From Giardia intestinalis (lineage: Eukaryota), in NCBI GenBank assembly GCA_000002435.2, contig CM018792.1: 64,000 nt of DNA; one strand, given 5' to 3'. How positions within the stretch are numbered: position 1 is the stretch's first letter; each line of letters opens with the position of its first letter. The notes under the pieces were generated by a model. It searched no databases, was not told where the DNA came from, and saw nothing but the letters and a program-made list of their open reading frames with translations. The position numbers were made by a program, and so were the translations under genes. This document shows, one piece after another, positions 4,823 through 15,805 of this stretch.

Positions 4823-6283
4823 ATGTCCAGCAATATCTACACAGCGCTTATGGAAGCCGCTCGAAAGGGCGACATGATCGCCTTGCGTCAAAATTTAAGA
4901 CAGCAGGCCAGGTTGAAGGACAACTTGGGCGTTACTGCGCTGATGTATGCAGCACAGGCGGGACGCTATGAAGCCGTTTCGCTCTTAGCTGAGTATGAGG
5001 CTGGGATGCAAGATTGGCGTGGGAAGACTGCTCTTATAACTGCTATTCAGAACGGGCACGCAGAGGTTGCCCGCATTCTGGTTCCCTACGAAACCGGACT
5101 GCGCGATACGGATGGCGCAACTGCTCTCATGAGCGCCGCCAGTATGGGGTTCAGTAGTCTCATTCAGGAGCTCCTGGAGAAAGAGGTAAAATGCGTAGAC
5201 GACAACGGAAAGACGGCCCTCATGTATGCCGCTGAATCAAACCAGGTTGATGCCGTCAGGATCCTTCTCAAGCACGAAGCAGGGATTCGGGACTCTAGTG
5301 GTCAGACCGCAATGATGTACGCTACCGTCAGCGGCAATATATCAGTCATTGAGCTTCTTTTGGGCTATGAAGCAGGGGTCTGCAAGGACAACGGCTGGTC
5401 CTGCCTTATGACCGCGGCTAAGTTGGGCAATTTTGAAGCTGCCGAGCTTCTGGCTCCAAAGGAGGCTTGCTTAGCAAAGCAGAACGGCATGACAGCACTT
5501 ATGGTTGCCGCACAATTCGACCACGAAGACATAGTGCGTCTCTTAATGGCTGCAGAGGGAAATATGGTTCGGAAAGACGGCCTGTCAGCAAGAAACATTG
5601 CTTCTCAGTTTGGAAACCACGACGTTGCAGATCTTCTCGCCAACTCCACCCACCTTTTTCTCCCGCCAAATCCCTCTGTTTCAGCAAAGTCTTCCAGAAA
5701 CGCTAACGGGCCCAGACCAGAAAATGATCCAAGCAAGGCCTTTACCTCCTCGACCCTCATGCCTCCTCAGCGGCATCAGTATCCCCATGCTCCGACAACA
5801 CCAACTACCAGGGGCGTGACTAAGCGGGAAGGCCATCAAGGACCCGGTGGATATAGCACGCCTGCATTAATAGAAAGCAACCATAATAACAGCAGTCATC
5901 CCGATGGCAACAATTCAAAGCTTGTAGAAAGCTACATTCTCTCTGAGGCCTCGCAGTTTGATAACATTACTTTGAACGCAACGCTAATGGATTCGGTTCA
6001 CTCGGGCCACTCTGCTTCCAATAATTCTAAAATACTAAAACTTATAACAGAAATAGATTGTAAAGATTGCGAGATCGACGCATTAAAAAAGCAGGTAACG
6101 CAGCTCCAAAACCAATTGTCCCACAAAGCAGACGGACTAGTGGATATAAAAGCTGACTATGTTTCTCAGGCTAGGCAGCTTCAGAAGATGGCCGAGTACA
6201 TGCTCGAATTTGCCAACGAAATTGAGCCTGGCATTAATTATATGAACTCGGCTACTACGCAGAAGTCTGATGCACTGAAATAG
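4823..6283 (+). CDS. Ankyrin-repeat protein of the Giardia 'Protein 21.1' type, with a C-terminal coiled coil
   Basis: Repeated ...G(K/Q)TALM.AA..G...V..LL..E.G... ankyrin units occur about 8 times, followed by a heptad-like tail (KDCEIDALKKQVTQLQNQL). The ORF-track start at 4811 is GTG; the first ATG is at 4823 (MSSNIYTALMEAARKG). Confidence 0.85.
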   Translation: MSSNIYTALMEAARKGDMIALRQNLRQQARLKDNLGVTALMYAAQAGRYEAVSLLAEYEAGMQDWRGKTALITAIQNGHAEVARILVPYETGLRDTDGATALMSAASMGFSSLIQELLEKEVKCVDDNGKTALMYAAESNQVDAVRILLKHEAGIRDSSGQTAMMYATVSGNISVIELLLGYEAGVCKDNGWSCLMTAAKLGNFEAAELLAPKEACLAKQNGMTALMVAAQFDHEDIVRLLMAAEGNMVRKDGLSARNIASQFGNHDVADLLANSTHLFLPPNPSVSAKSSRNANGPRPENDPSKAFTSSTLMPPQRHQYPHAPTTPTTRGVTKREGHQGPGGYSTPALIESNHNNSSHPDGNNSKLVESYILSEASQFDNITLNATLMDSVHSGHSASNNSKILKLITEIDCKDCEIDALKKQVTQLQNQLSHKADGLVDIKADYVSQARQLQKMAEYMLEFANEIEPGINYMNSATTQKSDALK

Positions 6284-6298
6284 TCGATAAGCTGTACT

Positions 6299-6305
6299 AG
6301 TGAAT
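6299..6305 (+). promoter_or_regulatory. Putative Giardia poly(A) signal AGTGAAT (AGTRAAY), 16 nt after the stop
   Basis: Motif match sitting directly 3' of the stop at 6283. Confidence 0.4.
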
Positions 6306-6766
6306 CTAGCATTTACTCCGTTTCAGAAAGTGACCTCATCAGCTGCAGCCCAAAGGCTGTCATCTGGGCCTCCCGAGTAACTGCTGGTCTTACATAGACT
6401 CACTTAGGTATTGCTCAAAGCACACTTCTTACACTCTGAACAGGAAGATATAGGCTGTCCCCAGATCTGCTCTCAAGGTAAAAGACTCACCTGGCTGTTG
6501 TCGGCCAGCTGAACCGTGTTCTTAGGGAATCGAGCAAGATAATCGCTTGCCGAAAAATAATCTGAAGGCTCGTTGATAAGTGAGACCTTCGGATACTCCA
6601 TAGTATCTGTTACTGACCAGAAGGGCGTGTTACATTCATATGTGTCTAGCTGGTGTCGGACGAGATAGTATTGGCAGATAGTCGGTGTCTGTGATTGCCA
6701 TTTATCCACAAGGCGACACTGCTCTTCTAGTCAGTCTATCATCTGCTCCTTGGCCTCCTTCACCGT

Positions 6767-7792
6767 GTGCCTCTGCTCAGACACTCTGAGCTTCCCGACT
6801 TCAGAAATATCATTGGGTATGGAGAGGATAGGACATCGTACATCATCTGCGGCACCCCCGGGATCGTCTCTGCTCTCCTTACGGCAGTCAAGCCGGCCTC
6901 GGGCACAGGTATCGCCTCCCGTGGAGCAACCTCGTTCCTGAAGCTGCGGCACGTGGTGATAGACGAGGCAGACCACATCCTCCTCAACGACAACACGTCC
7001 TTCCTGGCGCTCATCAGGGAGTTCTTCGCTCAACGGAACTCCACGGCCGTCTTCCGCGTGCCTCTCTTCTTCGCCCAGCGACACCGCCTTGGGCTTCCGA
7101 CGGACAGGTTTGTCTTCCTCTCTGCGACCATGAAGTACCGGGCGAGCCTGCTCGAGAACATGGGCCTCCACGGCGGGTGCATGGTGGACTTCGACGAGGG
7201 CCACGCGCGCCTTGCCCTCTCGCCCAACGTCGAACACTTCGTCGTCCAGCTCAAGCGGGTCTACTCCGAGATAGACATCACATACCTGGTCTTCAGGTTC
7301 CTCTGCAGCCCCGCCGGGTCCATCACCAACTCGAGGACGACCCTCCTGCCCTGCATCGTCTTCGTCAACTCCAGGCACACCGCGCAGCGCATCGCTCACC
7401 TGCTGTTCCTGATGATGATCAAGGTTTACAAAGAGCTCTGGTACAGGATAACGCTGGTGGCCCAGGGGCACGTCTTCCGGAGGCCGAACTTCGAGTCTGT
7501 CCCGGCCATCTCCAACGAGTCCCTCGAGGAACACCCTGCAACGATCGTCTTGGCAACTGATAACTTCGCCCGTGGGCTCGACCTTCCTGCGGTTCGCTCG
7601 GTGGTCAACTTCGATCCGAGCCGGGTCGTCTCCATAGACGAGAAGAGCCTCTGCGACTACCGGAGCACAGAGGGACCGCGGCTGTCCGACTTCTCCGTCG
7701 GGGACAGCGACGTGCTGGAGATCTCACGGAGGTTCAGCGAGAACACGGACATCTACCTGACCACCCTCTACGACGGGGAGTTCGGGCGCTAG
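6767..7792 (+). pseudogene. DEAD-box RNA helicase-like ORF lacking its N-terminal third (no Q motif, Walker A or motif Ia). Probably a gene fragment or pseudogene.
   Basis: The protein contains IICGTPG (motif Ib, TPGR-like), VIDEADHIL (motif II, DEAD), FLSAT (motif III, SAT), IVFVNSRHTAQ (start of domain 2) and ATDNFARGLDLP (motif V, ARGID-like). Motif VI (HRIGRTGR) is degenerate or absent. The ORF begins with GTG immediately after an in-frame stop, and the first ATG lies after the DEAD motif. The ORF is GC-rich while the 480 bp upstream is not. Confidence 0.5.
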
Positions 7793-7795
7793 GCG

Positions 7796-9706
7796 CTACA
7801 CGCCCTTGTGCGGAAGGTTCAGGTTGAGCGGGCTGTGGAAGATGTACTCCGGCGCGCAGAAGTAGTACTGCATGCAGTACCGGCCGAGGAAGAAGATGAC
7901 GATGGCCAGGGCCCCCACCAGGACGTAGTTCCACGCGCTGACCTCGAGGGCCTCGCACATCGTGCCCCCGTGCGCGTCGACCGTGTCCAGCCCGTTCACG
8001 CACCGCTTGACCTTGTTGTTGAACGGGGAGGCGCGGACGGCGTCTGCGATGGCGACCTTCTGGGCCTCGTCGGGCGCGGAGAGGAAGAGCGGGTGGACGC
8101 CGTCGCGGTCGGGCCCGTAGAAGCGGGGCATCGTGTACTCGACGGTCAGCTCGTGGCAGAGCGAGTTGGAGCCGCGGCCGATGTAGTAGTAGCCCGAGAC
8201 GCCCCAGCCGGTCCCCCACGAGTTGCGCAGGATCCAGACGGGCCGGCCCTTGTACGCCCCGTAGCCGACGAGCATGACCTGGTGGTTCGTGGTCGCGCGC
8301 ACGCACTTGACGTCGGGGAAGACGCCGCCCTTGTAGAGGTTGAACGTCAGCGCAGAGGCGACGACGGACTCGTAGTCCTTGTCGATCGACGTGTCGACGC
8401 CGGACTCTGTGTGCATGGCCGCCGCGACCCCGACCCCGCGGGCCAGGACGTTCATGACGTTCCGCTCCCACTCGGCGAACTTCCCCTTGTCCATCTCCTC
8501 GATGATGAGCCCCGAGGCCGGCACGCCCTCGTTCCGCAGGATCTGGTAGACGCCGAACTTATTTGGTGTCCCTGAGCCACCATTGACATCATACTCGTAT
8601 TCATCGCTACCTGCAGCCCCAGAATTAGAAGAGCTGCCCTTCTTCTTCATCGGCATGGAGACGAAGGCAGGGTTGAAGTCTCCTATATTGGCGTCCTGAC
8701 ACTTAGCACCATTGTCTGGGGCGGCCTTTTCGGGCGTCGCGTACTCCCTGTAGATGCACTCGGACTCCTTCGCGAGCTTGCTCAGCTTGTTGACGAAGTC
8801 TGCGATGGCGCGGAAGTAGTTTCCCCCGTTGCAGTAGTTCCCGCCGATGAGGTTGTCGAGGAGGAACTGGACGGAGAGGCGCAGGGTGGACGCGCTGTAG
8901 GACTTCCAGTTCTCGGGGATGTCGGTATACTCTTTCTCAGTACGATTTTGAACAGTTATCATTGCAGCGCAGTCATTACTCTTCTGACTGTCATCCTGGC
9001 TCGCAGGGGCCGAGCAGTTGCAGAAGTAGTTCGACGGAAAGGGCTGGGGATCGAGGTACTTCCCCCTCGTGTAGAGGTCTGCGTCGACGAGCATCAGGTT
9101 CTCGAGGACCTCGATGGTCGTGAACTCGTAGCAGGAGCCGCACAGGCCCTGGTCCTTCGCGCGGGTCACGAGGCCCACCTCGCGGAGGTCGACGGAGTGG
9201 GGGAGCGTCCGCTGCCTGTCTTTGACGTTCATGTCCCGCACGTCGACGAGGAAGAAGCTGTCCTGCTTCTTGCTCTTGTCGTCAGCGTTAGCACTCTGTG
9301 AATTAGCTTGAGTGTCTCCCTTCAGGTCCGGCCCCAGCTCGTAGGCATCGACGTTGCAGTTGGTGTACTTATTGGTTTTATTAGTCCAGTTGCACGCATC
9401 TGCAGCTGCGCTCCACTCGCCGCCCCCCAGCGACCGGGGCGGGAGGATGCCGGCGCGCGGGTGGCGGTCCATCCGGGACGTGATCCCGAAGGTGACGTGC
9501 TCGTGGCCCTCCCGGCGGAGCCTGCGGAGGTGCTCGAGGTGCATGCAGAAGTTCCGCTCCGCCTCCAGCCGGTCCCCGGGCGTGTCGTAGGCCTTCCCGT
9601 AGAGGCCGACGAAGCGCTCGAAGGCATGCTCGCACGCCATGTGGATGCTGAACGGGTCCCGCTCGGCCGATGCCGCGCAGAGGAAAGACAAAGTAAGCAG
9701 CAACAT
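7796..9706 (-). CDS. Papain-family (C1A) cysteine protease, cathepsin L-like, with signal peptide, pro-region, large insertions and a C-terminal TM anchor
   Basis: The protein has a signal peptide MLLLTLSFLCAASA. The pro-region has an ERFNIN-like motif (EAERNFCMHLEHL). The active-site Cys lies in QGLCGSCYEF, the His in NHQVMLVGYG and the Asn in ILRNSWGTGWGVSGYYYI. The C-terminal hydrophobic helix is WNYVLVGALAIVIFFLG. Start is a true ATG (caaaaaaggaccggATG). Confidence 0.8.
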   Translation of the reverse strand: MLLLTLSFLCAASAERDPFSIHMACEHAFERFVGLYGKAYDTPGDRLEAERNFCMHLEHLRRLRREGHEHVTFGITSRMDRHPRAGILPPRSLGGGEWSAAADACNWTNKTNKYTNCNVDAYELGPDLKGDTQANSQSANADDKSKKQDSFFLVDVRDMNVKDRQRTLPHSVDLREVGLVTRAKDQGLCGSCYEFTTIEVLENLMLVDADLYTRGKYLDPQPFPSNYFCNCSAPASQDDSQKSNDCAAMITVQNRTEKEYTDIPENWKSYSASTLRLSVQFLLDNLIGGNYCNGGNYFRAIADFVNKLSKLAKESECIYREYATPEKAAPDNGAKCQDANIGDFNPAFVSMPMKKKGSSSNSGAAGSDEYEYDVNGGSGTPNKFGVYQILRNEGVPASGLIIEEMDKGKFAEWERNVMNVLARGVGVAAAMHTESGVDTSIDKDYESVVASALTFNLYKGGVFPDVKCVRATTNHQVMLVGYGAYKGRPVWILRNSWGTGWGVSGYYYIGRGSNSLCHELTVEYTMPRFYGPDRDGVHPLFLSAPDEAQKVAIADAVRASPFNNKVKRCVNGLDTVDAHGGTMCEALEVSAWNYVLVGALAIVIFFLGRYCMQYYFCAPEYIFHSPLNLNLPHKGV

Positions 9707-9759
9707 CCGGTCCTTTTTTGGGCCGCGGGTAGGTTAGCCGTGTGCGGGACTTGCACACC

Positions 9760-10524
9760 CTACCGGGTCGCAGACAGGAAGAGGAGCCCGAAGAAGACGG
9801 CCGTGCTCGCCGTCACCCCCGCCACGGCCCCGATGTTCCTCACACGGCAGTCACATAGATCCCTGTGGTAGCCCTCGGCACAGACACAGGCATCCTTGTA
9901 GCACTCCCCGTGTCCTGTGCACACACTCCCAGCCAGACGAGTGTTCAGGTACTTCTTGCTGGCGCACAGCTGGCCATGGGGGACCGCGTCCTCGTCGCAC
10001 TGGCACGCAAGGGCGGCTGTGGCGTTCTGCACACACGTCCTGCCCCTTGCCTTGGGCGTCCAGTTGCAGGCAGCCCCGTTCTTCACGCACTGGGCGTGCA
10101 CGCACGTGCTGTTCAGCATCACAAAGCCGTCCTCACACTTGCACAGGTACTCTCCATCACTGTATAGGCATTCTCCGTGCGGGCACACAAAACCCGTGTC
10201 CGAAACACACCCCGCCGGGGCGCACCCGTGGTCCGGAATGTGCTTGAATGGTGGCACGCACAGACACTGGTGTCTCGCCGTGGAGTGGTCCAGTCGGCAG
10301 AGCAGAGAGCTCGTCAGGTTTGCCACGAAGCCGTCGGTGAGGATCGTGCTATTGTTGTTTCTGATGCTCTTATCAAGCATGTGGGGGTATCCGCAGAGCC
10401 GCTCTCCGACGACGCACTCGGCCGGGTAGCACAGCCCCTCGGGGGGAGTAGTCCTGGCAGGCGCCTGCGGGCTGTCTTGGTTGTCGGCTTCGGCTGCTGC
10501 CCTCGAGAGAACCCTGGGCTGCAA
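9760..10524 (-). CDS. EGF-like cysteine-rich membrane protein (HCMP/Notch-like EGF modules), possibly 5'-incomplete
   Basis: EGF-type Cys spacing (CKCEDGFV, CVCAEGYHRDLCDC) is followed by a C-terminal TM segment IGAVAGVTASTAVFFGLLFL. No signal peptide is present at the annotated N-terminus (MQPRVLSRAAAEADNQDSPQAP...). Confidence 0.5.
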   Translation of the reverse strand: MQPRVLSRAAAEADNQDSPQAPARTTPPEGLCYPAECVVGERLCGYPHMLDKSIRNNNSTILTDGFVANLTSSLLCRLDHSTARHQCLCVPPFKHIPDHGCAPAGCVSDTGFVCPHGECLYSDGEYLCKCEDGFVMLNSTCVHAQCVKNGAACNWTPKARGRTCVQNATAALACQCDEDAVPHGQLCASKKYLNTRLAGSVCTGHGECYKDACVCAEGYHRDLCDCRVRNIGAVAGVTASTAVFFGLLFLSATR

Positions 10525-10996: not shown

Positions 10997-13900
10997 ATGT
11001 TGATAGGATTTCTCCTAGTTTGTGCAACCGTGCTGGCAAAGAACAGCGGGAAGACCGCATGCGTGGCGGCCTCTAACACAGCATGCGCAGCAGCCCTGGA
11101 CACGGCGGGCTGCAAGACCTGCGGCCCCGACGCCCAGACGTGCCTGGACTGCAAGACTCCTGGCGAGAACGTGCAGCTCGATAAAAGAAGCTGCAAGGCC
11201 AACTGCCCGCAGAACTCCTCCCCCAACCAGAACGTCTGCGAGTGCGACCCGGGATTCAGCCTGAACAATGGAAAAGACGCGTGCGAGGCGGTTGCCAACG
11301 TCAACTGCGCAGCAGCCCTGGACACGGCGGGCTGCAAGACCTGCGGCCCCGACGCCCAGACGTGCCTGGACTGCAAGACTCCTGGCGAGAACGTGCAGCT
11401 CGATAAAAGAAGCTGCAAGGCCAACTGCCCGCAGAACTCCTCCCCCAACCAGAACGTCTGCGAGTGCGACCCGGGATTCAGCCTGAACAATGGAAAAGAC
11501 GCGTGCGAGGCGGTTGCCAACGTCAACTGCGCAGCAGCCCTGGACACGGCGGGCTGCAAGACCTGCGGCCCCGACGCCCAGACGTGCCTGGACTGCAAGA
11601 CTCCTGGCGAGAACGTGCAGCTCGATAAAAGAAGCTGCAAGGCCAACTGCCCGCAGAACTCCTCCCCCAACCAGAACGTCTGCGAGTGCGACCCGGGATT
11701 CAGCCTGAACAATGGAAAAGACGCGTGCGAGGCGGTTGCCAACGTCAACTGCGCAGCAGCCCTGGACACGGCGGGCTGCAAGACCTGCGGCCCCGACGCC
11801 CAGACGTGCCTGGACTGCAAGACTCCTGGCGAGAACGTGCAGCTCGATAAAAGAAGCTGCAAGGCCAACTGCCCGCAGAACTCCTCCCCCAACCAGAACG
11901 TCTGCGAGTGCGACCCGGGATTCAGCCTGAACAATGGAAAAGACGCGTGCGAGGCGGTTGCCAACGTCAACTGCGCAGCAGCCCTGGACACGGCGGGCTG
12001 CAAGACCTGCGGCCCCGACGCCCAGACGTGCCTGGACTGCAAGACTCCTGGCGAGAACGTGCAGCTCGATAAAAGAAGCTGCAAGGCCAACTGCCCGCAG
12101 AACTCCTCCCCCAACCAGAACGTCTGCGAGTGCGACCCGGGATTCAGCCTGAACAATGGAAAAGACGCGTGCGAGGCGGTTGCCAACGTCAACTGCGCAG
12201 CAGCCCTGGACACGGCGGGCTGCAAGACCTGCGGCCCCGACGCCCAGACGTGCCTGGACTGCAAGACTCCTGGCGAGAACGTGCAGCTCGATAAAAGAAG
12301 CTGCAAGGCCAACTGCCCGCAGAACTCCTCCCCCAACCAGAACGTCTGCGAGTGCGACCCGGGATTCAGCCTGAACAATGGAAAAGACGCGTGCGAGGCG
12401 GTTGCCAACGTCAACTGCGCAGCAGCCCTGGACACGGCGGGCTGCAAGACCTGCGGCCCCGACGCCCAGACGTGCCTGGACTGCAAGACTCCTGGCGAGA
12501 ACGTGCAGCTCGATAAAAGAAGCTGCAAGGCCAACTGCCCGCAGAACTCCTCCCCCAACCAGAACGTCTGCGAGTGCGACCCGGGATTCAGCCTGAACAA
12601 TGGAAAAGACGCGTGCGAGGCGGTTGCCAACGTCAACTGCGCAGCAGCCCTGGACACGGCGGGCTGCAAGACCTGCGGCCCCGACGCCCAGACGTGCCTG
12701 GACTGCAAGACTCCTGGCGAGAACGTGCAGCTCGATAAAAGAAGCTGCAAGGCCAACTGCCCGCAGAACTCCTCCCCCAACCAGAACGTCTGCGAGTGCG
12801 ACCCGGGATTCAGCCTGAACAATGGAAAAGACGCGTGCGAGGCGGTTGCCAACGTCAACTGCGCAGCAGCCCTGGACACGGCGGGCTGCAAGACCTGCGG
12901 CCCCGACGCCCAGACGTGCCTGGACTGCAAGACTCCTGGCGAGAACGTGCAGCTCGATAAAAGAAGCTGCAAGGCCAACTGCCCGCAGAACTCCTCCCCC
13001 AACCAGAACGTCTGCGAGTGCGACCCGGGATTCAGCCTGAACAATGGAAAAGACGCGTGCGAGGCGGTTGCCAACGTCAACTGCGCAGCAGCCCTGGACA
13101 CGGCGGGCTGCAAGACCTGCGGCCCCGACGCCCAGACGTGCCTGGACTGCAAGACTCCTGGCGAGAACGTGCAGCTCGATAAAAGAAGCTGCAAGGCCAA
13201 CTGCCCGCAGAACTCCTCCCCCAACCAGAACGTCTGCGAGTGCGACCCGGGATTCAGCCTGAACAATGGAAAAGACGCGTGCGAGGCGGTTGCCAACGTC
13301 AACTGCGCAGCAGCCCTGGACACGGCGGGCTGCAAGACCTGCGGCCCCGACGCCCAGACGTGCCTGGACTGCAAGACTCCTGGCGAGAACGTGCAGCTCG
13401 ATAAAAGAAGCTGCAAGGCCAACTGCCCGCAGAACTCCTCCCCCAACCAGAACGTCTGCGAGTGCGACCCGGGATTCAGCCTGAACAATGGAAAAGACGC
13501 GTGCGAGGCGGTTGCCAACGTCAACTGCGCAGCAGCCCTGGACACGGCGGGCTGCAAGACCTGCGGCCCCGACGCCCAGACGTGCCTGGACTGCAAGACT
13601 CCTGGCGAGAACGTGCAGCTCGATAAAAGAAGCTGCAAGGCCAACTGCCCGCAGAACTCCTCCCCCAACCAGAACGTCTGCGAGTGCGACCCGGGATTCA
13701 GCCTGAACAATGGAAAAGACGCGTGCGAGGCGGTTGCCAACGTCAACTGCGCAGCAGCCCTGGACACGGCGGGCTGCAAGACCTGCGGCCCCGACGCCCA
13801 GACGTGCCTGGACTGCAAGACTCCTGGCGAGAACGTGCAGCTCGATAAAAGAAGCTGCAAGGCCAACTGCCCGCAGAACTCCTCCCCCAACCAGAACGTC

Positions 13901-15805
13901 TGCGAGTGCGACCCGGGATTCAGCCTGAACAATGGAAAAGACGCGTGCGAGGCGGTTGCCAACGTCAACTGCGCAGCAGCCCTGGACACGGCGGGCTGCA
14001 AGACCTGCGGCCCCGACGCCCAGACGTGCCTGGACTGCAAGACTCCTGGCGAGAACGTGCAGCTCGATAAAAGAAGCTGCAAGGCCAACTGCCCGCAGAA
14101 CTCCTCCCCCAACCAGAACGTCTGCGAGTGCGACCCGGGATTCAGCCTGAACAATGGAAAAGACGCGTGCGAGGCGGTTGCCAACGTCAACTGCGCAGCA
14201 GCCCTGGACACGGCGGGCTGCAAGACCTGCGGCCCCGACGCCCAGACGTGCCTGGACTGCAAGACTCCTGGCGAGAACGTGCAGCTCGATAAAAGAAGCT
14301 GCAAGGCCAACTGCCCGCAGAACTCCTCCCCCAACCAGAACGTCTGCGAGTGCGACCCGGGATTCAGCCTGAACAATGGAAAAGACGCGTGCGAGGCGGT
14401 TGCCAACGTCAACTGCGCAGCAGCCCTGGACACGGCGGGCTGCAAGACCTGCGGCCCCGACGCCCAGACGTGCCTGGACTGCAAGACTCCTGGCGAGAAC
14501 GTGCAGCTCGATAAAAGAAGCTGCAAGGCCAACTGCCCGCAGAACTCCTCCCCCAACCAGAACGTCTGCGAGTGCGACCCGGGATTCAGCCTGAACAATG
14601 GAAAAGACGCGTGCGAGGCGGTTGCCAACGTCAACTGCGCAGCAGCCCTGGACACGGCGGGCTGCAAGACCTGCGGCCCCGACGCCCAGACGTGCACGGC
14701 CTGTACAGAGGCTTCCAACAATGTACAGATTGACAAGAAGAGCTGCAAGGCCGACTGCCCGTCGAACTCTGCAGCCAACGGCCAGCACGTCTGCGAGTGC
14801 GCCGTTGGGTACCAGCCGACTCCCGGGCAGAACCAGTGCGAGAAGGCCCCTAACACGCAGTGCAATACTCCCAACTGCAAGACCTGTGACAACCCCAAAA
14901 CAGACAACGAAATCTGCACTGAATGTAATGATGGCAACTACCTCACCCCGACAAAGCAGTGCACGCAGAGCTGCGGAGCAATAGGAAGCTACTACAACGG
15001 AGACAAAGTGTGCGAGCCTTGTGATCCTAGCTGTGCTGGGTGCACCACAAAGGGGCCAGCGAAGTGCACAGCTTGTCCTCCCGGGAAAATGCTAAAATAC
15101 ACCAATGATGATCCTAATCAAGGTGGATCCTGCGTAGATGAGTGCAAAGCAGAGATGGACGGGTGTGCAGAGTGTGGAGCGGTAATCGGCGGTACGAAGT
15201 ACTGTTCAAAATGCAAGGAAGATAAGTGGGCACCTCAGAATGGCGTGTGCGCTAATTCAGTAACAAGGAATTCATTCTGCACGAACGCAGCAGGTGGCGT
15301 ATGCACTCAGTGTGCTGCAGATCATTTTCTTCAAGATGGAGGCTGCTATAAACTCGGTAGACAGCCTGGTGTCCAGATATGTGCAGCGGCGGGTCCCAAT
15401 AGCCTGTGTACTACGTGCGTAAATGGACAGAGACCAGATACCAATACTGGAGCCTGTCCTGTGTGTCCAACAGGTTGTGACACATGTACAGGGACATCCT
15501 CGCGGGCGCCCGAATGCCAATCTTGCCTTCTGGGATACTATTTCGATTCTGATAAAAAGCTGTGTGTGAAATGTACCGAGAATAGTAGTGCTATTCAAGG
15601 TGTTAGCAGCTGTGTGAGCTGTAGTCCTCCATCTAATAATCAAGGATCTGTCGTCTGCTACCTCATAAATGATAGCGGTAGCACAAACAAGAGTAGCAGG
15701 CTCTCCACTGGGGCCATCGCTGGCATCTCCGTTGCTGTGGTCGTTGTTGTAGGAGGGCTTGTTGGCTTCTTGTGTTGGTGGTTCCTCTGCCGCGGGAAGG
15801 CGTAG
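10997..15805 (+). CDS. Variant-specific surface protein (VSP), 1602 aa, containing about 16.5 tandem 74-aa Cys-rich repeats
   Basis: The protein has a signal peptide MLIGFLLVCATVLA. About 16 copies of NVNCAAALDTAGCKTCGPDAQTCLDCKTPGENVQLDKRSCKANCPQNSSPNQNVCECDPGFSLNNGKDACEAVA follow. A unique CXXC-rich region containing GGCY comes next. The C-terminus is the TM GAIAGISVAVVVVVGGLVGFLCWWFLC followed by the invariant tail CRGKA*. Confidence 0.9.
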   Translation: MLIGFLLVCATVLAKNSGKTACVAASNTACAAALDTAGCKTCGPDAQTCLDCKTPGENVQLDKRSCKANCPQNSSPNQNVCECDPGFSLNNGKDACEAVANVNCAAALDTAGCKTCGPDAQTCLDCKTPGENVQLDKRSCKANCPQNSSPNQNVCECDPGFSLNNGKDACEAVANVNCAAALDTAGCKTCGPDAQTCLDCKTPGENVQLDKRSCKANCPQNSSPNQNVCECDPGFSLNNGKDACEAVANVNCAAALDTAGCKTCGPDAQTCLDCKTPGENVQLDKRSCKANCPQNSSPNQNVCECDPGFSLNNGKDACEAVANVNCAAALDTAGCKTCGPDAQTCLDCKTPGENVQLDKRSCKANCPQNSSPNQNVCECDPGFSLNNGKDACEAVANVNCAAALDTAGCKTCGPDAQTCLDCKTPGENVQLDKRSCKANCPQNSSPNQNVCECDPGFSLNNGKDACEAVANVNCAAALDTAGCKTCGPDAQTCLDCKTPGENVQLDKRSCKANCPQNSSPNQNVCECDPGFSLNNGKDACEAVANVNCAAALDTAGCKTCGPDAQTCLDCKTPGENVQLDKRSCKANCPQNSSPNQNVCECDPGFSLNNGKDACEAVANVNCAAALDTAGCKTCGPDAQTCLDCKTPGENVQLDKRSCKANCPQNSSPNQNVCECDPGFSLNNGKDACEAVANVNCAAALDTAGCKTCGPDAQTCLDCKTPGENVQLDKRSCKANCPQNSSPNQNVCECDPGFSLNNGKDACEAVANVNCAAALDTAGCKTCGPDAQTCLDCKTPGENVQLDKRSCKANCPQNSSPNQNVCECDPGFSLNNGKDACEAVANVNCAAALDTAGCKTCGPDAQTCLDCKTPGENVQLDKRSCKANCPQNSSPNQNVCECDPGFSLNNGKDACEAVANVNCAAALDTAGCKTCGPDAQTCLDCKTPGENVQLDKRSCKANCPQNSSPNQNVCECDPGFSLNNGKDACEAVANVNCAAALDTAGCKTCGPDAQTCLDCKTPGENVQLDKRSCKANCPQNSSPNQNVCECDPGFSLNNGKDACEAVANVNCAAALDTAGCKTCGPDAQTCLDCKTPGENVQLDKRSCKANCPQNSSPNQNVCECDPGFSLNNGKDACEAVANVNCAAALDTAGCKTCGPDAQTCLDCKTPGENVQLDKRSCKANCPQNSSPNQNVCECDPGFSLNNGKDACEAVANVNCAAALDTAGCKTCGPDAQTCTACTEASNNVQIDKKSCKADCPSNSAANGQHVCECAVGYQPTPGQNQCEKAPNTQCNTPNCKTCDNPKTDNEICTECNDGNYLTPTKQCTQSCGAIGSYYNGDKVCEPCDPSCAGCTTKGPAKCTACPPGKMLKYTNDDPNQGGSCVDECKAEMDGCAECGAVIGGTKYCSKCKEDKWAPQNGVCANSVTRNSFCTNAAGGVCTQCAADHFLQDGGCYKLGRQPGVQICAAAGPNSLCTTCVNGQRPDTNTGACPVCPTGCDTCTGTSSRAPECQSCLLGYYFDSDKKLCVKCTENSSAIQGVSSCVSCSPPSNNQGSVVCYLINDSGSTNKSSRLSTGAIAGISVAVVVVVGGLVGFLCWWFLCRGKA
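11046..14700 (+). repeat. Tandem array of about 16.5 x 222 bp, apparently 100% identical units, inside the VSP coding sequence
   Basis: The identical 72-aa alternate-frame ORFs at 11268, 11490, ... 14598 are spaced exactly 222 nt apart (16 copies). Both antisense frames stay open across the whole array. By-eye comparison of units shows no mismatches. Confidence 0.9.

What the first reader, a model, noticed from the sequence alone, without database searches (positions are those of the whole stretch)
6767..7792. 5'-truncated DEAD-box helicase-like ORF beginning exactly at a base-composition boundary
Seen: the ORF carries helicase motifs Ib (GTPG), II (VIDEAD), III (SAT) and V (ARGLD) in canonical order. 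It has no Q motif, Walker A (GSGKT) or PTRELA. It opens with GTG directly after an in-frame stop, its first ATG lies after the DEAD box, and motif VI (HRIGRTGR) is not recognisable. The ORF is strongly GC3-rich whereas the 480 bp upstream (6284-6766) has ordinary composition and no helicase-like coding potential in any frame. Inference: this is a helicase gene fragment, either a relic of a rearrangement or insertion whose breakpoint is near 6760, or a decaying paralogue. It is unlikely to encode a functional helicase.
Basis: partly seen in the sequence, partly recalled or inferred. Interest (0 to 1): 0.5.

Follow-up and report, generated by a model that had tools for sequence, protein, structure and literature searches.

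The report
Helicase gene relic in duplicated module
The ORF is a dead partial copy of a Giardia ribosome-biogenesis-type DEAD-box helicase gene, carried as a passenger in a 4-kb duplicated block with a cysteine-protease gene; copying between the blocks keeps it open and parent-like, and biased copying is the probable cause of its GC-richness.

Summary
The window is Giardia intestinalis WB: its cysteine protease (CP) is 100% identical to XP_001709779.1. ORF 6767-7792 corresponds to codons ~184-561 of the intact 561-aa helicase GL50803_113655 (DDX51/Dbp6-like), which lies on another chromosome. The two are 97% identical in protein.

The ORF lacks the Q motif and motifs I and Ia. A 129-bp deletion between 13-nt direct repeats removed motif VI. 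A stop-interrupted relic of codons 93-119 lies at 6701-6781.

The relic is the left end of a ~4-kb module (6466-10457): filler, helicase 3' part, intact CP gene, and the 3' fragment of a cysteine-rich membrane protein gene. Assemblage A carries four such modules, with nested helicase truncations. G. muris synteny shows one ancestral locus was split and the overlap duplicated.

Paralogues within a genome are closer (dS 0.02-0.10) than orthologues between assemblages (dS ~0.23), which indicates gene conversion.

The composition boundary is genuine and also lies inside the intact parent gene: GC3 is 0.43 in the single-copy part and 0.85 in the multi-copy part. The G. muris orthologue is uniform at ~0.54. 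GC-biased gene conversion is the best explanation, but it is inferred.

This is an ordinary pseudogene that offers a modestly interesting natural experiment.

The parts
6466..10457 (.). Whole duplicated module (locus C copy): filler, helicase relic, intact cysteine protease gene and a fragment of a cysteine-rich membrane protein gene
   Evidence: blastn and MAFFT against DH locus B (L005) give 91-99% identity over 6466-10457. Against parent locus A (L007) the match runs 6790 to about 10122. The DH orthologous locus L006 is collinear from window position 1.
6466..6700 (+). Filler of unknown origin, shared by the truncated copies at loci B and C but absent from the parent locus. GC is about 0.47
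   Evidence: Alignment A1 and blastn. No similarity to the parent 5' region. The minus-strand ORF 6473-6709 has no Pfam match, and indels break it in P15.
6701..6781 (+). Degenerate relic of parent codons 93-119 (motif Ia region), in frame with the ORF and interrupted by TAG at 6728-6730. Parent codons ~120-183 are missing after it
   Evidence: tblastn: FVVPTTHLLTQIYHLLLNLFHDVPSVR against FIHKATLLF*SVYHLLLGLLHRVPLLR, E=3e-5 in the restricted search. The DNA local alignment of 6736-6775 is marginal on its own, reached by 11-18 of 300 shuffles. Reading alignment A1, the same relic in P15 appears to share P15-specific bases with the P15 parent.
6767..7792 (+). The flagged ORF (341 codons, GTG start). 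It corresponds to parent codons ~184-561 minus 43 codons and contains motifs Ib, II, III, IV and V only
   Evidence: 10 aa differences from the WB parent over 333 aligned residues. These include R402W and E513K at positions invariant in all other copies and in G. muris.
7130..7132 (+). First in-frame ATG. It is the start used to annotate the 263-aa paralogue at WB locus B. No AT-rich initiator precedes it
   Evidence: The DH orthologue has Thr at this position, so the ATG is lost there.
7602..7614 (+). Junction of the 129-bp in-frame deletion that removed motif VI (HRVGRCARG). This is the single surviving copy of the 13-nt direct repeat TGGTCAACTTCGA
   Evidence: Multiple alignment with DH_A, DH_B, DH_C, P15_A and P15_B, which all keep both repeats and the 129 bp between them.
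7796..9706 (-). Intact papain-family cysteine protease gene (636 aa), convergent with the relic. It is the probable reason the module is retained
   Evidence: Pfam Peptidase_C1, E=6e-31. 100% identical to WB XP_001709779.1 / KAE8303844.1. Four 636-637-aa paralogues in WB and four of 635-636 aa in DH. GC3 0.88.
9760..10524 (-). 3'-terminal fragment of a high-cysteine (EGF-like) membrane protein gene, forming the truncated right end of the module. Homology to the full-length gene at locus B ends at about 10457
   Evidence: tblastn with the G. muris 1118-aa neighbour matches its residues 842-1111. Weak EGF-domain Pfam matches. blastn to L005.

Best explanation
The ORF is a non-functional relic (an unprocessed, partial-duplicate pseudogene) of the Giardia DEAD-box helicase GL50803_113655 (DDX51/Dbp6-like).

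Shown:
- In the Giardia ancestor, as still seen in G. muris, the helicase sat between a 268-aa gene and a convergent cysteine-rich membrane protein (HCMP) gene.
- In G. duodenalis assemblages A and E this locus is split in two.
- Locus A keeps the upstream neighbour, the complete helicase, a cysteine protease (CP) gene and only the 3' end of the HCMP gene.
- Locus B keeps only the 3' two-thirds of the helicase, a CP gene, the complete HCMP gene and the downstream neighbours.
- The overlap (helicase 3' part, CP, HCMP 3' end) is therefore duplicated.
- The window holds a further copy (locus C), inserted between an ankyrin 'protein 21.1' gene and a VSP gene. A fourth, shorter copy (locus D) exists in isolate DH.
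- The copies undergo concerted evolution. Paralogues within a genome are far more alike than orthologues between assemblages. The window copy has regained a 45-bp segment that the other truncated copies (DH loci B and C, P15 locus B) lack.
- Decay continues where conversion does not repair it. The lesions are the 129-bp slippage deletion of motif VI, a stop in the isolated 5' relic, and substitutions at invariant residues.

Inferred:
- The relic is a passenger of the CP gene, which stays intact in every copy.
- Ectopic gene conversion from the intact parent explains the long open frame and the low dN/dS.
- The conversion is GC-biased. This would explain why GC3 jumps from about 0.43 to about 0.85 at the edge of the multi-copy segment, both here and inside the intact parent gene.
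- No helicase activity is expected, because the ATP-binding half of RecA1 and motif VI of RecA2 are both missing.
For: Identity of the genome and the parent:
- The CP is 100% identical to a WB protein.
- Hits and cluster members include 561-aa helicases from WB, DH and P15, and a 525-aa one from G. muris.
- The 561-aa gene is listed as GL50803_113655, DDX51/DBP6-like.

Truncation:
- tblastn homology covers parent residues 169/184-561 only, plus the relic of codons 93-119.
- No N-terminal motifs occur anywhere in the 64 kb.

Module and synteny:
- Gene orders of L001, L002, L005, L006, L007, L008 and L010.
- G. muris neighbours map to locus A (upstream gene) and to locus B (HCMP, tRNA synthetase, aminotransferase).
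- Module boundaries.

The junction is not an assembly artefact. It is the same in the WB window, DH L006 and an independent Logan contig, L004, which is 99.7% identical.

Lesions:
- The 129-bp and 45-bp deletions between direct repeats.
- A 28-bp deletion in P15_B.
- Loss of the ATG in DH_C.
- Frameshifts in GS and an in-frame stop in L009.
- R402W and E513K.

Concerted evolution:
- dS is 0.02 for P15_B versus P15_A and 0.06-0.10 among the DH copies.
- dS is about 0.23 between assemblages A and E, although the junction and the 45-bp deletion are shared across assemblages.

Promoter: the parent has an AT-rich initiator (aatttaaatactATG). The relic has none before GTG 6767 or ATG 7130.

Composition:
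- Parent GC3 is 0.43-0.45 for codons 1-185 and 0.85 for codons 186-561.
- G. muris GC3 is 0.52 and 0.56 for the same two parts.
- The HCMP gene rises from about 0.40 to 0.75-0.85 towards its duplicated end.
- The window background is 0.42-0.61.
- Polarised third-position changes: W>S 4/77 versus 15/45 (p=6e-5), and S>W 19/64 versus 37/317 (p=7e-4). This gives GC* of 0.15 versus 0.74.
Against: - The frame is open for 341 codons. Pairwise dN/dS is 0.2-0.46, which taken alone would suggest constraint.
- A paralogue at WB locus B is annotated as a 263-aa protein, and the DH orthologue as a partial helicase.
- No expression data could be consulted, so transcription or translation of a fragment is not excluded.
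- The GC-biased conversion step is indirect. The polarisation uses a GC-rich outgroup and parsimony, and counts are small.
- In the HCMP gene the GC3 rise starts about 350 codons before the homology boundary detectable today.
- The 235-bp filler shared by loci B and C is not GC-rich.
- CP and VSP genes could owe their high GC3 to codon-usage selection.
- DNA of the WB parent locus itself could not be fetched. DH and P15 DNA served as proxies.
Confidence: 0.8

Rival explanations
1. The fragment is a living gene. A short protein, for example 220 aa from ATG 7130, would be a RecA2-like domain without motif VI. It could act as an RNA-binding or dominant-negative regulator of the parent helicase.
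For: - A 341-codon ORF without stops.
- The same ORF, with one aa difference, in an independent assembly.
- dN/dS of 0.2-0.46.
- A related fragment is annotated as a protein in WB and P15.
Against: - No start codon is conserved. Giardia is not known to use GTG (own knowledge), and the ATG at 7130 is Thr in the DH orthologue.
- No AT-rich initiator precedes either candidate start.
- Copy lengths differ at every locus and isolate: codons 184-561, 431-561, or 30-561 with frameshifts.
- Independent deletions remove different parts.
- Unique substitutions hit invariant residues.
- Low dN/dS and the open frame are expected from conversion by a constrained parent and from 85% GC3. The antisense strand carries a 267-aa ORF too.
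Confidence: 0.08
2. The relic reading is right, but the composition boundary is not due to GC-biased gene conversion. It would reflect codon-usage selection on the highly expressed CP and VSP genes spilling over, or a local mutational or recombination hotspot unrelated to copy number.
For: - CP (0.88) and VSP (0.76) are GC3-rich genes of families that may be highly expressed.
- The GC3 rise in the HCMP gene begins before the present homology boundary.
- The filler shared by loci B and C is not GC-rich.
Against: - Selection on translation cannot make one half of a single mRNA 0.43 and the other half 0.85, and it cannot act on pseudogene copies.
- The switch in the parent sits at the duplication breakpoint.
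- The single-copy G. muris orthologue is uniform.
- In assemblage B the copy begins at codon ~30 and is GC3-rich from there on.
- W>S and S>W rates differ significantly between the two halves of the same gene.
Confidence: 0.3
3. The gene is intact and the truncation is an artefact, caused by a sequencing frameshift, a misassembly, or a missing exon joined by cis- or trans-splicing.
For: Giardia does have a few cis- and trans-spliced genes (own knowledge).
Against: - The same junction appears in three independent assemblies.
- No Walker A or Q-motif coding sequence occurs in any frame of the 64-kb window.
- No Giardia-type splice motifs lie upstream. One strict 3' splice-site-like match exists, 7 kb away inside the VSP gene.
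- The parent gene is a continuous 561-codon ORF in WB, DH and P15.
Confidence: 0.02

Closest known systems
GL50803_113655 (XP_001704952.1), the 561-aa Giardia WB DEAD-box helicase; closest relatives listed are human DDX51 and yeast Dbp6 (Gargantini et al. 2012, PMC3566956, supplement)
   Same: It is the parent sequence. The two are 97% identical in protein over codons ~184-561. They share motifs Ib, II, III, IV and V, the same convergent CP neighbour and the same GC3-rich 3' part.
   Different: The window copy lacks codons 1-92 and 120-183, which hold the Q motif, motif I and a recognisable motif Ia. It also lacks 43 codons including motif VI and has no AT-rich initiator.
Other truncated copies: WB XP_001706882.1 (263 aa, 'Helicase conserved C-terminal domain-containing protein'), P15 GLP15_2222, and DH ESU39326.1 (393 aa) and ESU37333.1 (369 aa, 'partial')
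   Same: The DH locus B and C copies share the window's 5' junction and filler, and P15 GLP15_2222 shows recognisable homology to both. All have the CP gene next door. DH ESU37333.1 is the positional orthologue: UTP20, then the 490-aa ankyrin gene, the fragment and the CP gene.
   Different: The DH and P15 truncated copies keep motif VI but lack 15 codons (FFAQRNSTAVFRVPL) that the window copy has. The WB 263-aa copy also keeps motif VI, but its annotation starts downstream of that segment, so its state there is unknown. The window copy is apparently unannotated in WB: its exact 341-aa and 220-aa products are not in the protein collection.
Duplications flanking rearrangement breakpoints (the staggered-break model described for Drosophila inversions; own knowledge, not tested here)
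   Same: Two derived loci each carry one complete flank and share a duplicated overlap whose ends cut through genes.
   Different: Whether the Giardia event was a single staggered-break rearrangement, or a duplication followed by a rearrangement, cannot be told from these data. Further copies (loci C and D) arose later.
GC enrichment of multi-copy sequences by GC-biased gene conversion (for example rDNA, Escobar et al. 2011, cited for Giardia rRNA in PMC10123126)
   Same: High GC is confined to sequences that exchange information between copies. There is a step in composition at the edge of the repeated segment.
   Different: For Giardia this has only been suggested for rDNA. Here the evidence is a protein-coding gene that is half single-copy and half multi-copy. 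The bias itself is inferred, not measured.

Membership tests
DEAD-box RNA helicase (SF2), functional member | Q motif and motif I (Walker A, AxxGxGKT) for ATP binding | tested here: not met
   Both are absent from the ORF and from every frame of the window. The parent has ASATGSGKT at residues ~64-72.
DEAD-box RNA helicase (SF2), functional member | Motif Ia (PTRELA-type) | tested here: not met
   Only a degenerate relic with a stop remains at 6701-6781. The parent's VVPTTHL reads IHKATLL here.
DEAD-box RNA helicase (SF2), functional member | Motifs Ib, II (DEAD), III (SAT) and V in canonical order | tested here: met
   GTPG, VIDEAD, SAT and ARGLD are present in order. They align to the parent and to DDX42-type motif V.
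DEAD-box RNA helicase (SF2), functional member | Motif VI (HRxGRxxR) | tested here: not met
   HRVGRCARG was removed by the 129-bp deletion.
DEAD-box RNA helicase (SF2), functional member | Pfam DEAD (PF00270) and Helicase_C (PF00271) above their gathering scores | tested here: inconclusive
   DEAD scores 19.9 bits against a cut-off of 26 (fails). Helicase_C scores 23.6 against 23.5 (borderline). The parent scores 52.5 and 42.5 bits.
Unprocessed partial-duplicate pseudogene | An intact parent paralogue exists in the same genome | tested here: met
   WB P0011, 561 aa, lies on a different (1.97-Mb) sequence from the window's 2.76-Mb one.
Unprocessed partial-duplicate pseudogene | The copy boundary lies inside the gene and is shared with flanking duplicated DNA | tested here: met
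   The module spans 6466-10457 and has truncated genes at both ends.
Unprocessed partial-duplicate pseudogene | Disabling lesions that differ among copies and isolates | tested here: met
Unprocessed partial-duplicate pseudogene | Lack of expression or translation | not testable with these tools
   No expression data are available. There is only the absence of an AT-rich initiator.
Gene-conversion (concerted evolution) domain with GC bias | Paralogues within a genome are more similar than orthologues between lineages, despite an older duplication | tested here: met
   dS is 0.02-0.10 against ~0.23. The junction and the 45-bp deletion are shared across assemblages A and E.
Gene-conversion (concerted evolution) domain with GC bias | A W>S-biased substitution process confined to the converted segment | tested here: inconclusive
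   Rates differ as predicted (GC* 0.74 against 0.15; p=6e-5 and 7e-4). However, this rests on one gene, parsimony and a GC-rich outgroup.

The most novel reading that the evidence does not exclude
If so, this locus would be direct, locus-level evidence that GC-biased gene conversion shapes Giardia coding sequence. The same helicase gene is GC3 0.43 where it is single-copy and 0.85 where it is multi-copy. The boundary appears to move with the duplication boundary between assemblages, at codon ~185 in A/E and ~30 in B. The single-copy G. muris orthologue is flat. A recombination-associated bias in an organism with no observed sex would help explain the wide GC3 spread among Giardia genes that is usually ascribed to codon selection.
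Probability: 0.45. Interest if true: 0.55.

Novelty: new member of a known kind. Interest (0 to 1): 0.3.

Why it matters
As a gene, it matters little. It is a dead partial copy and should be annotated as a pseudogene rather than a helicase. Its paralogue at WB locus B, now named 'Helicase conserved C-terminal domain-containing protein', probably deserves the same label.

It is useful in three ways:
1. It documents how a cysteine-protease gene family expanded in G. duodenalis through a ~4-kb module that cuts through both neighbouring genes. The module copies in the window and at DH locus D lie next to VSP genes, as does the assemblage B (GS) copy.
2. It shows that gene conversion between chromosomes keeps a pseudogene open and parent-like. 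That is a caution for dN/dS-based calls of function.
3. It offers a compact natural experiment for GC-biased gene conversion in Giardia, and that idea can be tested genome-wide.

Tried and rejected
- Frameshift or a hidden N-terminus. tblastn of eight full-length and partial relatives against all six frames of the window, at E up to 10, found no Walker A or Q-motif region. Rejected.
- Intron or trans-splicing. A regex search for Giardia 5' and 3' splice motifs over 6200-6900 found only one loose CTGAC..AG. The only strict 3' splice-site-like motif in the window is at 14849, inside the VSP gene. Rejected.
- DNA of the WB parent and WB locus B. Look-ups of P0011 and P0009 returned nothing on record. 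DH and P15 loci were used instead.
- Origin of the 6466-6700 filler. There is no blastn or tblastn similarity to the parent 5' region, to the G. muris locus or to any other fetched locus. Its minus-strand 78-aa ORF has no Pfam hit. Left unexplained.
- The DNA-level alignment of the 6736-6775 relic is only marginal (11-18 of 300 shuffles reach its score). The claim rests on the in-frame, collinear protein match and on apparently lineage-specific shared bases read from alignment A1.
- The nature of run SRR3602117 (RNA or DNA) could not be established, so the Logan contig is not used as evidence of transcription.
- PDB sequence search gave only weak motif V hits such as DDX42 (E=0.008). Structure prediction was judged unnecessary.
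- Exact-sequence look-ups of the 341-aa and 220-aa products found no record. This suggests, but does not prove, that the locus is unannotated in WB.
Full report
**1. What is in the sequence**

ORF 6767..7792 (+) is 341 codons long and opens with GTG. Its translation carries these motifs in canonical order:
- GTPG at aa 29-32.
- VIDEAD at aa 63-68.
- SAT at aa 119-121.
- ARGLD at aa 267-271.

It has no Q motif, no Walker A and no motif VI. Pfam sees only weak partial matches. DEAD scores 19.9 bits, below its cut-off, and covers only the C-terminal part of the profile. Helicase_C scores 23.6 bits, right at its cut-off. PDB sequences match only around motif V.

GC rises from about 0.47 upstream to about 0.6 inside the ORF. 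GC3 of the fragment is 0.85. The 22 other ATG-ORFs of 250 aa or more in the window lie at 0.42-0.61. The only other outliers are the adjacent cysteine protease (0.88) and a VSP gene (0.76).

Two details of the finding need correction:
- The in-frame stop is at 6728-6730, 12 codons before the GTG.
- The last ~65 bp of 'upstream' DNA are a degenerate helicase relic (section 3).

**2. Source genome and parent gene**

The neighbouring 636-aa papain-family protease (7796..9706, minus strand) is 100% identical to Giardia intestinalis WB XP_001709779.1 / KAE8303844.1, which lies on a 2.76-Mb sequence.

The ORF's relatives include full-length helicases of 561 aa from WB (XP_001704952.1, on a 1.97-Mb sequence), DH and P15, and one of 525 aa from G. 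muris. The 561-aa WB gene appears in the supplement of Gargantini et al. 2012 as XM_001704900.1 (GL50803_113655). That table gives DDX51 and yeast Dbp6 as its closest relatives.

The window ORF differs from the WB parent at 10 of 333 aligned residues. The parent passes both Pfam thresholds.

**3. Anatomy of the truncation**

tblastn and blastn show high-identity homology to the parent from about 6790, which corresponds to parent codon ~184.

Immediately upstream, in the same frame, window 6701-6781 reads FIHKATLLF*SVYHLLLGLLHRVPLLR. Parent codons 93-119 read FVVPTTHLLTQIYHLLLNLFHDVPSVR. That is 48% identity, with E=3e-5 when only the upstream regions are searched and E=0.22 against the whole window. 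The DNA score alone is marginal. Read from alignment A1, the P15 relic appears to share P15-specific bases with the P15 parent.

The copy therefore holds a relic of codons 93-119, lacks codons ~120-183 and continues with codons ~184-561. Nothing resembling codons 1-92 (Q motif, Walker A) exists anywhere in the 64 kb.

Motif VI is missing because 129 bp were deleted between two copies of TGGTCAACTTCGA. All other copies keep both repeats.

A second deletion, of 45 bp between TTCTTCGC repeats, is present in DH locus C, DH locus B and P15 locus B. It is absent from the window copy.

**4. The relic is one end of a duplicated module**

The gene orders are as follows:

| Locus | Source | Gene order |
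|---|---|---|
| Single locus | G. muris | 268-aa gene, helicase, convergent 1118-aa EGF-like cysteine-rich membrane protein (HCMP), tRNA synthetase, aminotransferase |
| Locus A | DH L007, P15 L001 | orthologue of the 268-aa gene, full helicase, CP, 3' fragment of HCMP |
| Locus B | DH L005, P15 L002 | HECT gene, 592-aa EGF protein, filler, helicase 3' part, CP, full HCMP, tRNA synthetase, aminotransferase |
| Locus C | the window, DH L006, Logan L004 | UTP20, two further genes, 490-aa ankyrin gene, filler, helicase 3' part, CP, HCMP 3' fragment, VSP |
| Locus D | DH L010 | VSP, short HCMP-derived remnant, CP, helicase codons 431-561 only |

The orthology calls rest, and the locus D boundaries.

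One ancestral locus was therefore split. The overlap (helicase 3' part, CP, HCMP 3' end) was duplicated and later copied again.

In the window the module spans 6466-10457. Both of its ends cut through genes, while the CP gene in the middle is intact in every copy.

Assemblage B copies (L003, L009) begin at codon ~30. They carry two frameshifts or an in-frame stop.

**5. Concerted evolution**

The 5' junction and the 45-bp deletion are shared between assemblages A and E, so the truncated copy predates their split.

Despite that, synonymous divergence between paralogues within a genome is small. It is 0.02 for P15_B versus P15_A and 0.06-0.10 among the DH copies. Between assemblages it is about 0.23 for every pairing.

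The window copy has the 45 bp that the other truncated copies for which that region is available lack, so it was patched from the parent.

The short relic upstream of the internal gap is about 72% identical to the parent in DNA over ~40 bp. It probably lies outside the reach of conversion.

Conversion from a constrained parent explains both the long open frame and the pairwise dN/dS of 0.2-0.46. Neither is therefore evidence of function. At 85% GC3 the antisense strand also shows a 267-aa ORF.

**6. The composition boundary**

The GC3 step is not only a boundary between a gene and its spacer. It also exists inside the intact parent gene:

| Sequence | Single-copy part (parent codons 1-185) | Multi-copy part (parent codons 186-561) |
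|---|---|---|
| DH and P15 parent | 0.43-0.45 | 0.85 |
| G. muris orthologue (single copy throughout) | 0.52 | 0.56 |

The locus B HCMP gene rises from about 0.40 to 0.75-0.85 towards the end that lies in the module. The G. muris HCMP gene does not. The assemblage B copy, whose homology starts at codon ~30, is GC3-rich (0.63-0.87) from there on.

Third-position changes on the A/E lineages were polarised with the assemblage B sequence as outgroup:

| Region | W>S | S>W | Equilibrium GC3 |
|---|---|---|---|
| Single-copy part | 4/77 | 19/64 | 0.15 |
| Multi-copy part | 15/45 | 37/317 | 0.74 |
| Fisher p | 6e-5 | 7e-4 | |

I infer that the conversion shown in section 5 is GC-biased.

Caveats on this inference:
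- It rests on one gene and small counts.
- It uses parsimony with a GC-rich outgroup.
- The HCMP rise starts before today's homology boundary.
- The filler shared by loci B and C is not GC-rich.

In the searchable literature, GC-biased conversion in Giardia is mentioned only as a possible cause of GC-rich rDNA.

**7. Function**

The relic lacks the ATP-binding half of RecA1 and motif VI of RecA2. Giardia genes characteristically have a short AT-rich initiator just before the ATG (own knowledge). The parent gene has one (aatttaaatactATG), and the ankyrin and CP genes also have A-rich stretches just before their ATGs. Neither GTG 6767 nor ATG 7130 is preceded by one.

The ATG at 7130 is lost in the DH orthologue. 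The window copy carries R402W and E513K at positions invariant in all other copies and in G. muris.

I conclude that this is a pseudogene carried along with the CP gene. A role as a short protein or as an RNA cannot be excluded without expression data.

**8. Comparison and novelty**

This is a partial-duplicate pseudogene, which is a well-known kind of object. Related fragments are already in the databases, where they are named as helicase or helicase C-terminal-domain proteins. The WB locus C copy seems unannotated.

What the analysis adds is the history of the four-copy CP module, the evidence for inter-chromosomal conversion, and the link between copy number and GC3.

**Verdict**

The intrinsic interest of the fragment is low. 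The GC-biased conversion reading carries modest interest and can be tested genome-wide.

Noticed in passing
window 10997-15805 (+); repeats at 11084-14695: A 1602-aa VSP gene (Pfam VSP, ends in CRGKA) holds 16.3 perfectly identical 222-bp (74-aa) tandem repeats. Its GC3 is 0.76. It directly flanks the duplicated module.
   Followed up: partly
window 9760-10524 (-): A 3'-terminal fragment of a high-cysteine EGF-like membrane protein gene, with a TM segment at its end. It matches residues 842-1111 of the G. muris neighbour. This is a second gene relic, forming the other end of the module.
   Followed up: yes
window 6466-6700; minus-strand ORF 6473-6709: About 235 bp of filler is shared only by the truncated copies at loci B and C. 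Its origin is unknown. It contains a 78-aa antisense ORF with no Pfam hit, and indels break that ORF in P15.
   Followed up: partly
L003 5920-7496 and L009 47-1612 (assemblage B): The assemblage B helicase copy next to CP and HCMP starts at codon ~30. It carries two frameshifts in one isolate and an in-frame stop in another. No intact assemblage B orthologue turned up in the protein search.
   Followed up: partly
L010 7600-10310 (DH locus D): A fourth module copy retains only helicase codons 431-561. It shares its VSP-side flank with locus C, which suggests that loci C and D are related by a separate duplication that included the VSP 5' end.
   Followed up: partly
window 9938-10391 versus L006 13277-13335: WB locus C holds about 450 bp of HCMP-derived sequence that DH locus C lacks, although DH locus B has it. 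This is either a deletion in DH or a longer conversion tract in WB.
   Followed up: no
window 14849: The only strict match in the window to the Giardia fused branch-point and 3' splice-site motif (CCTAACACGCAG) lies inside the VSP coding region. It is probably a chance match.
   Followed up: no
window 6731-7534 (-): A 267-aa antisense ORF overlaps the relic. This is expected in 85% GC3 sequence and is not evidence of a gene.
   Followed up: no
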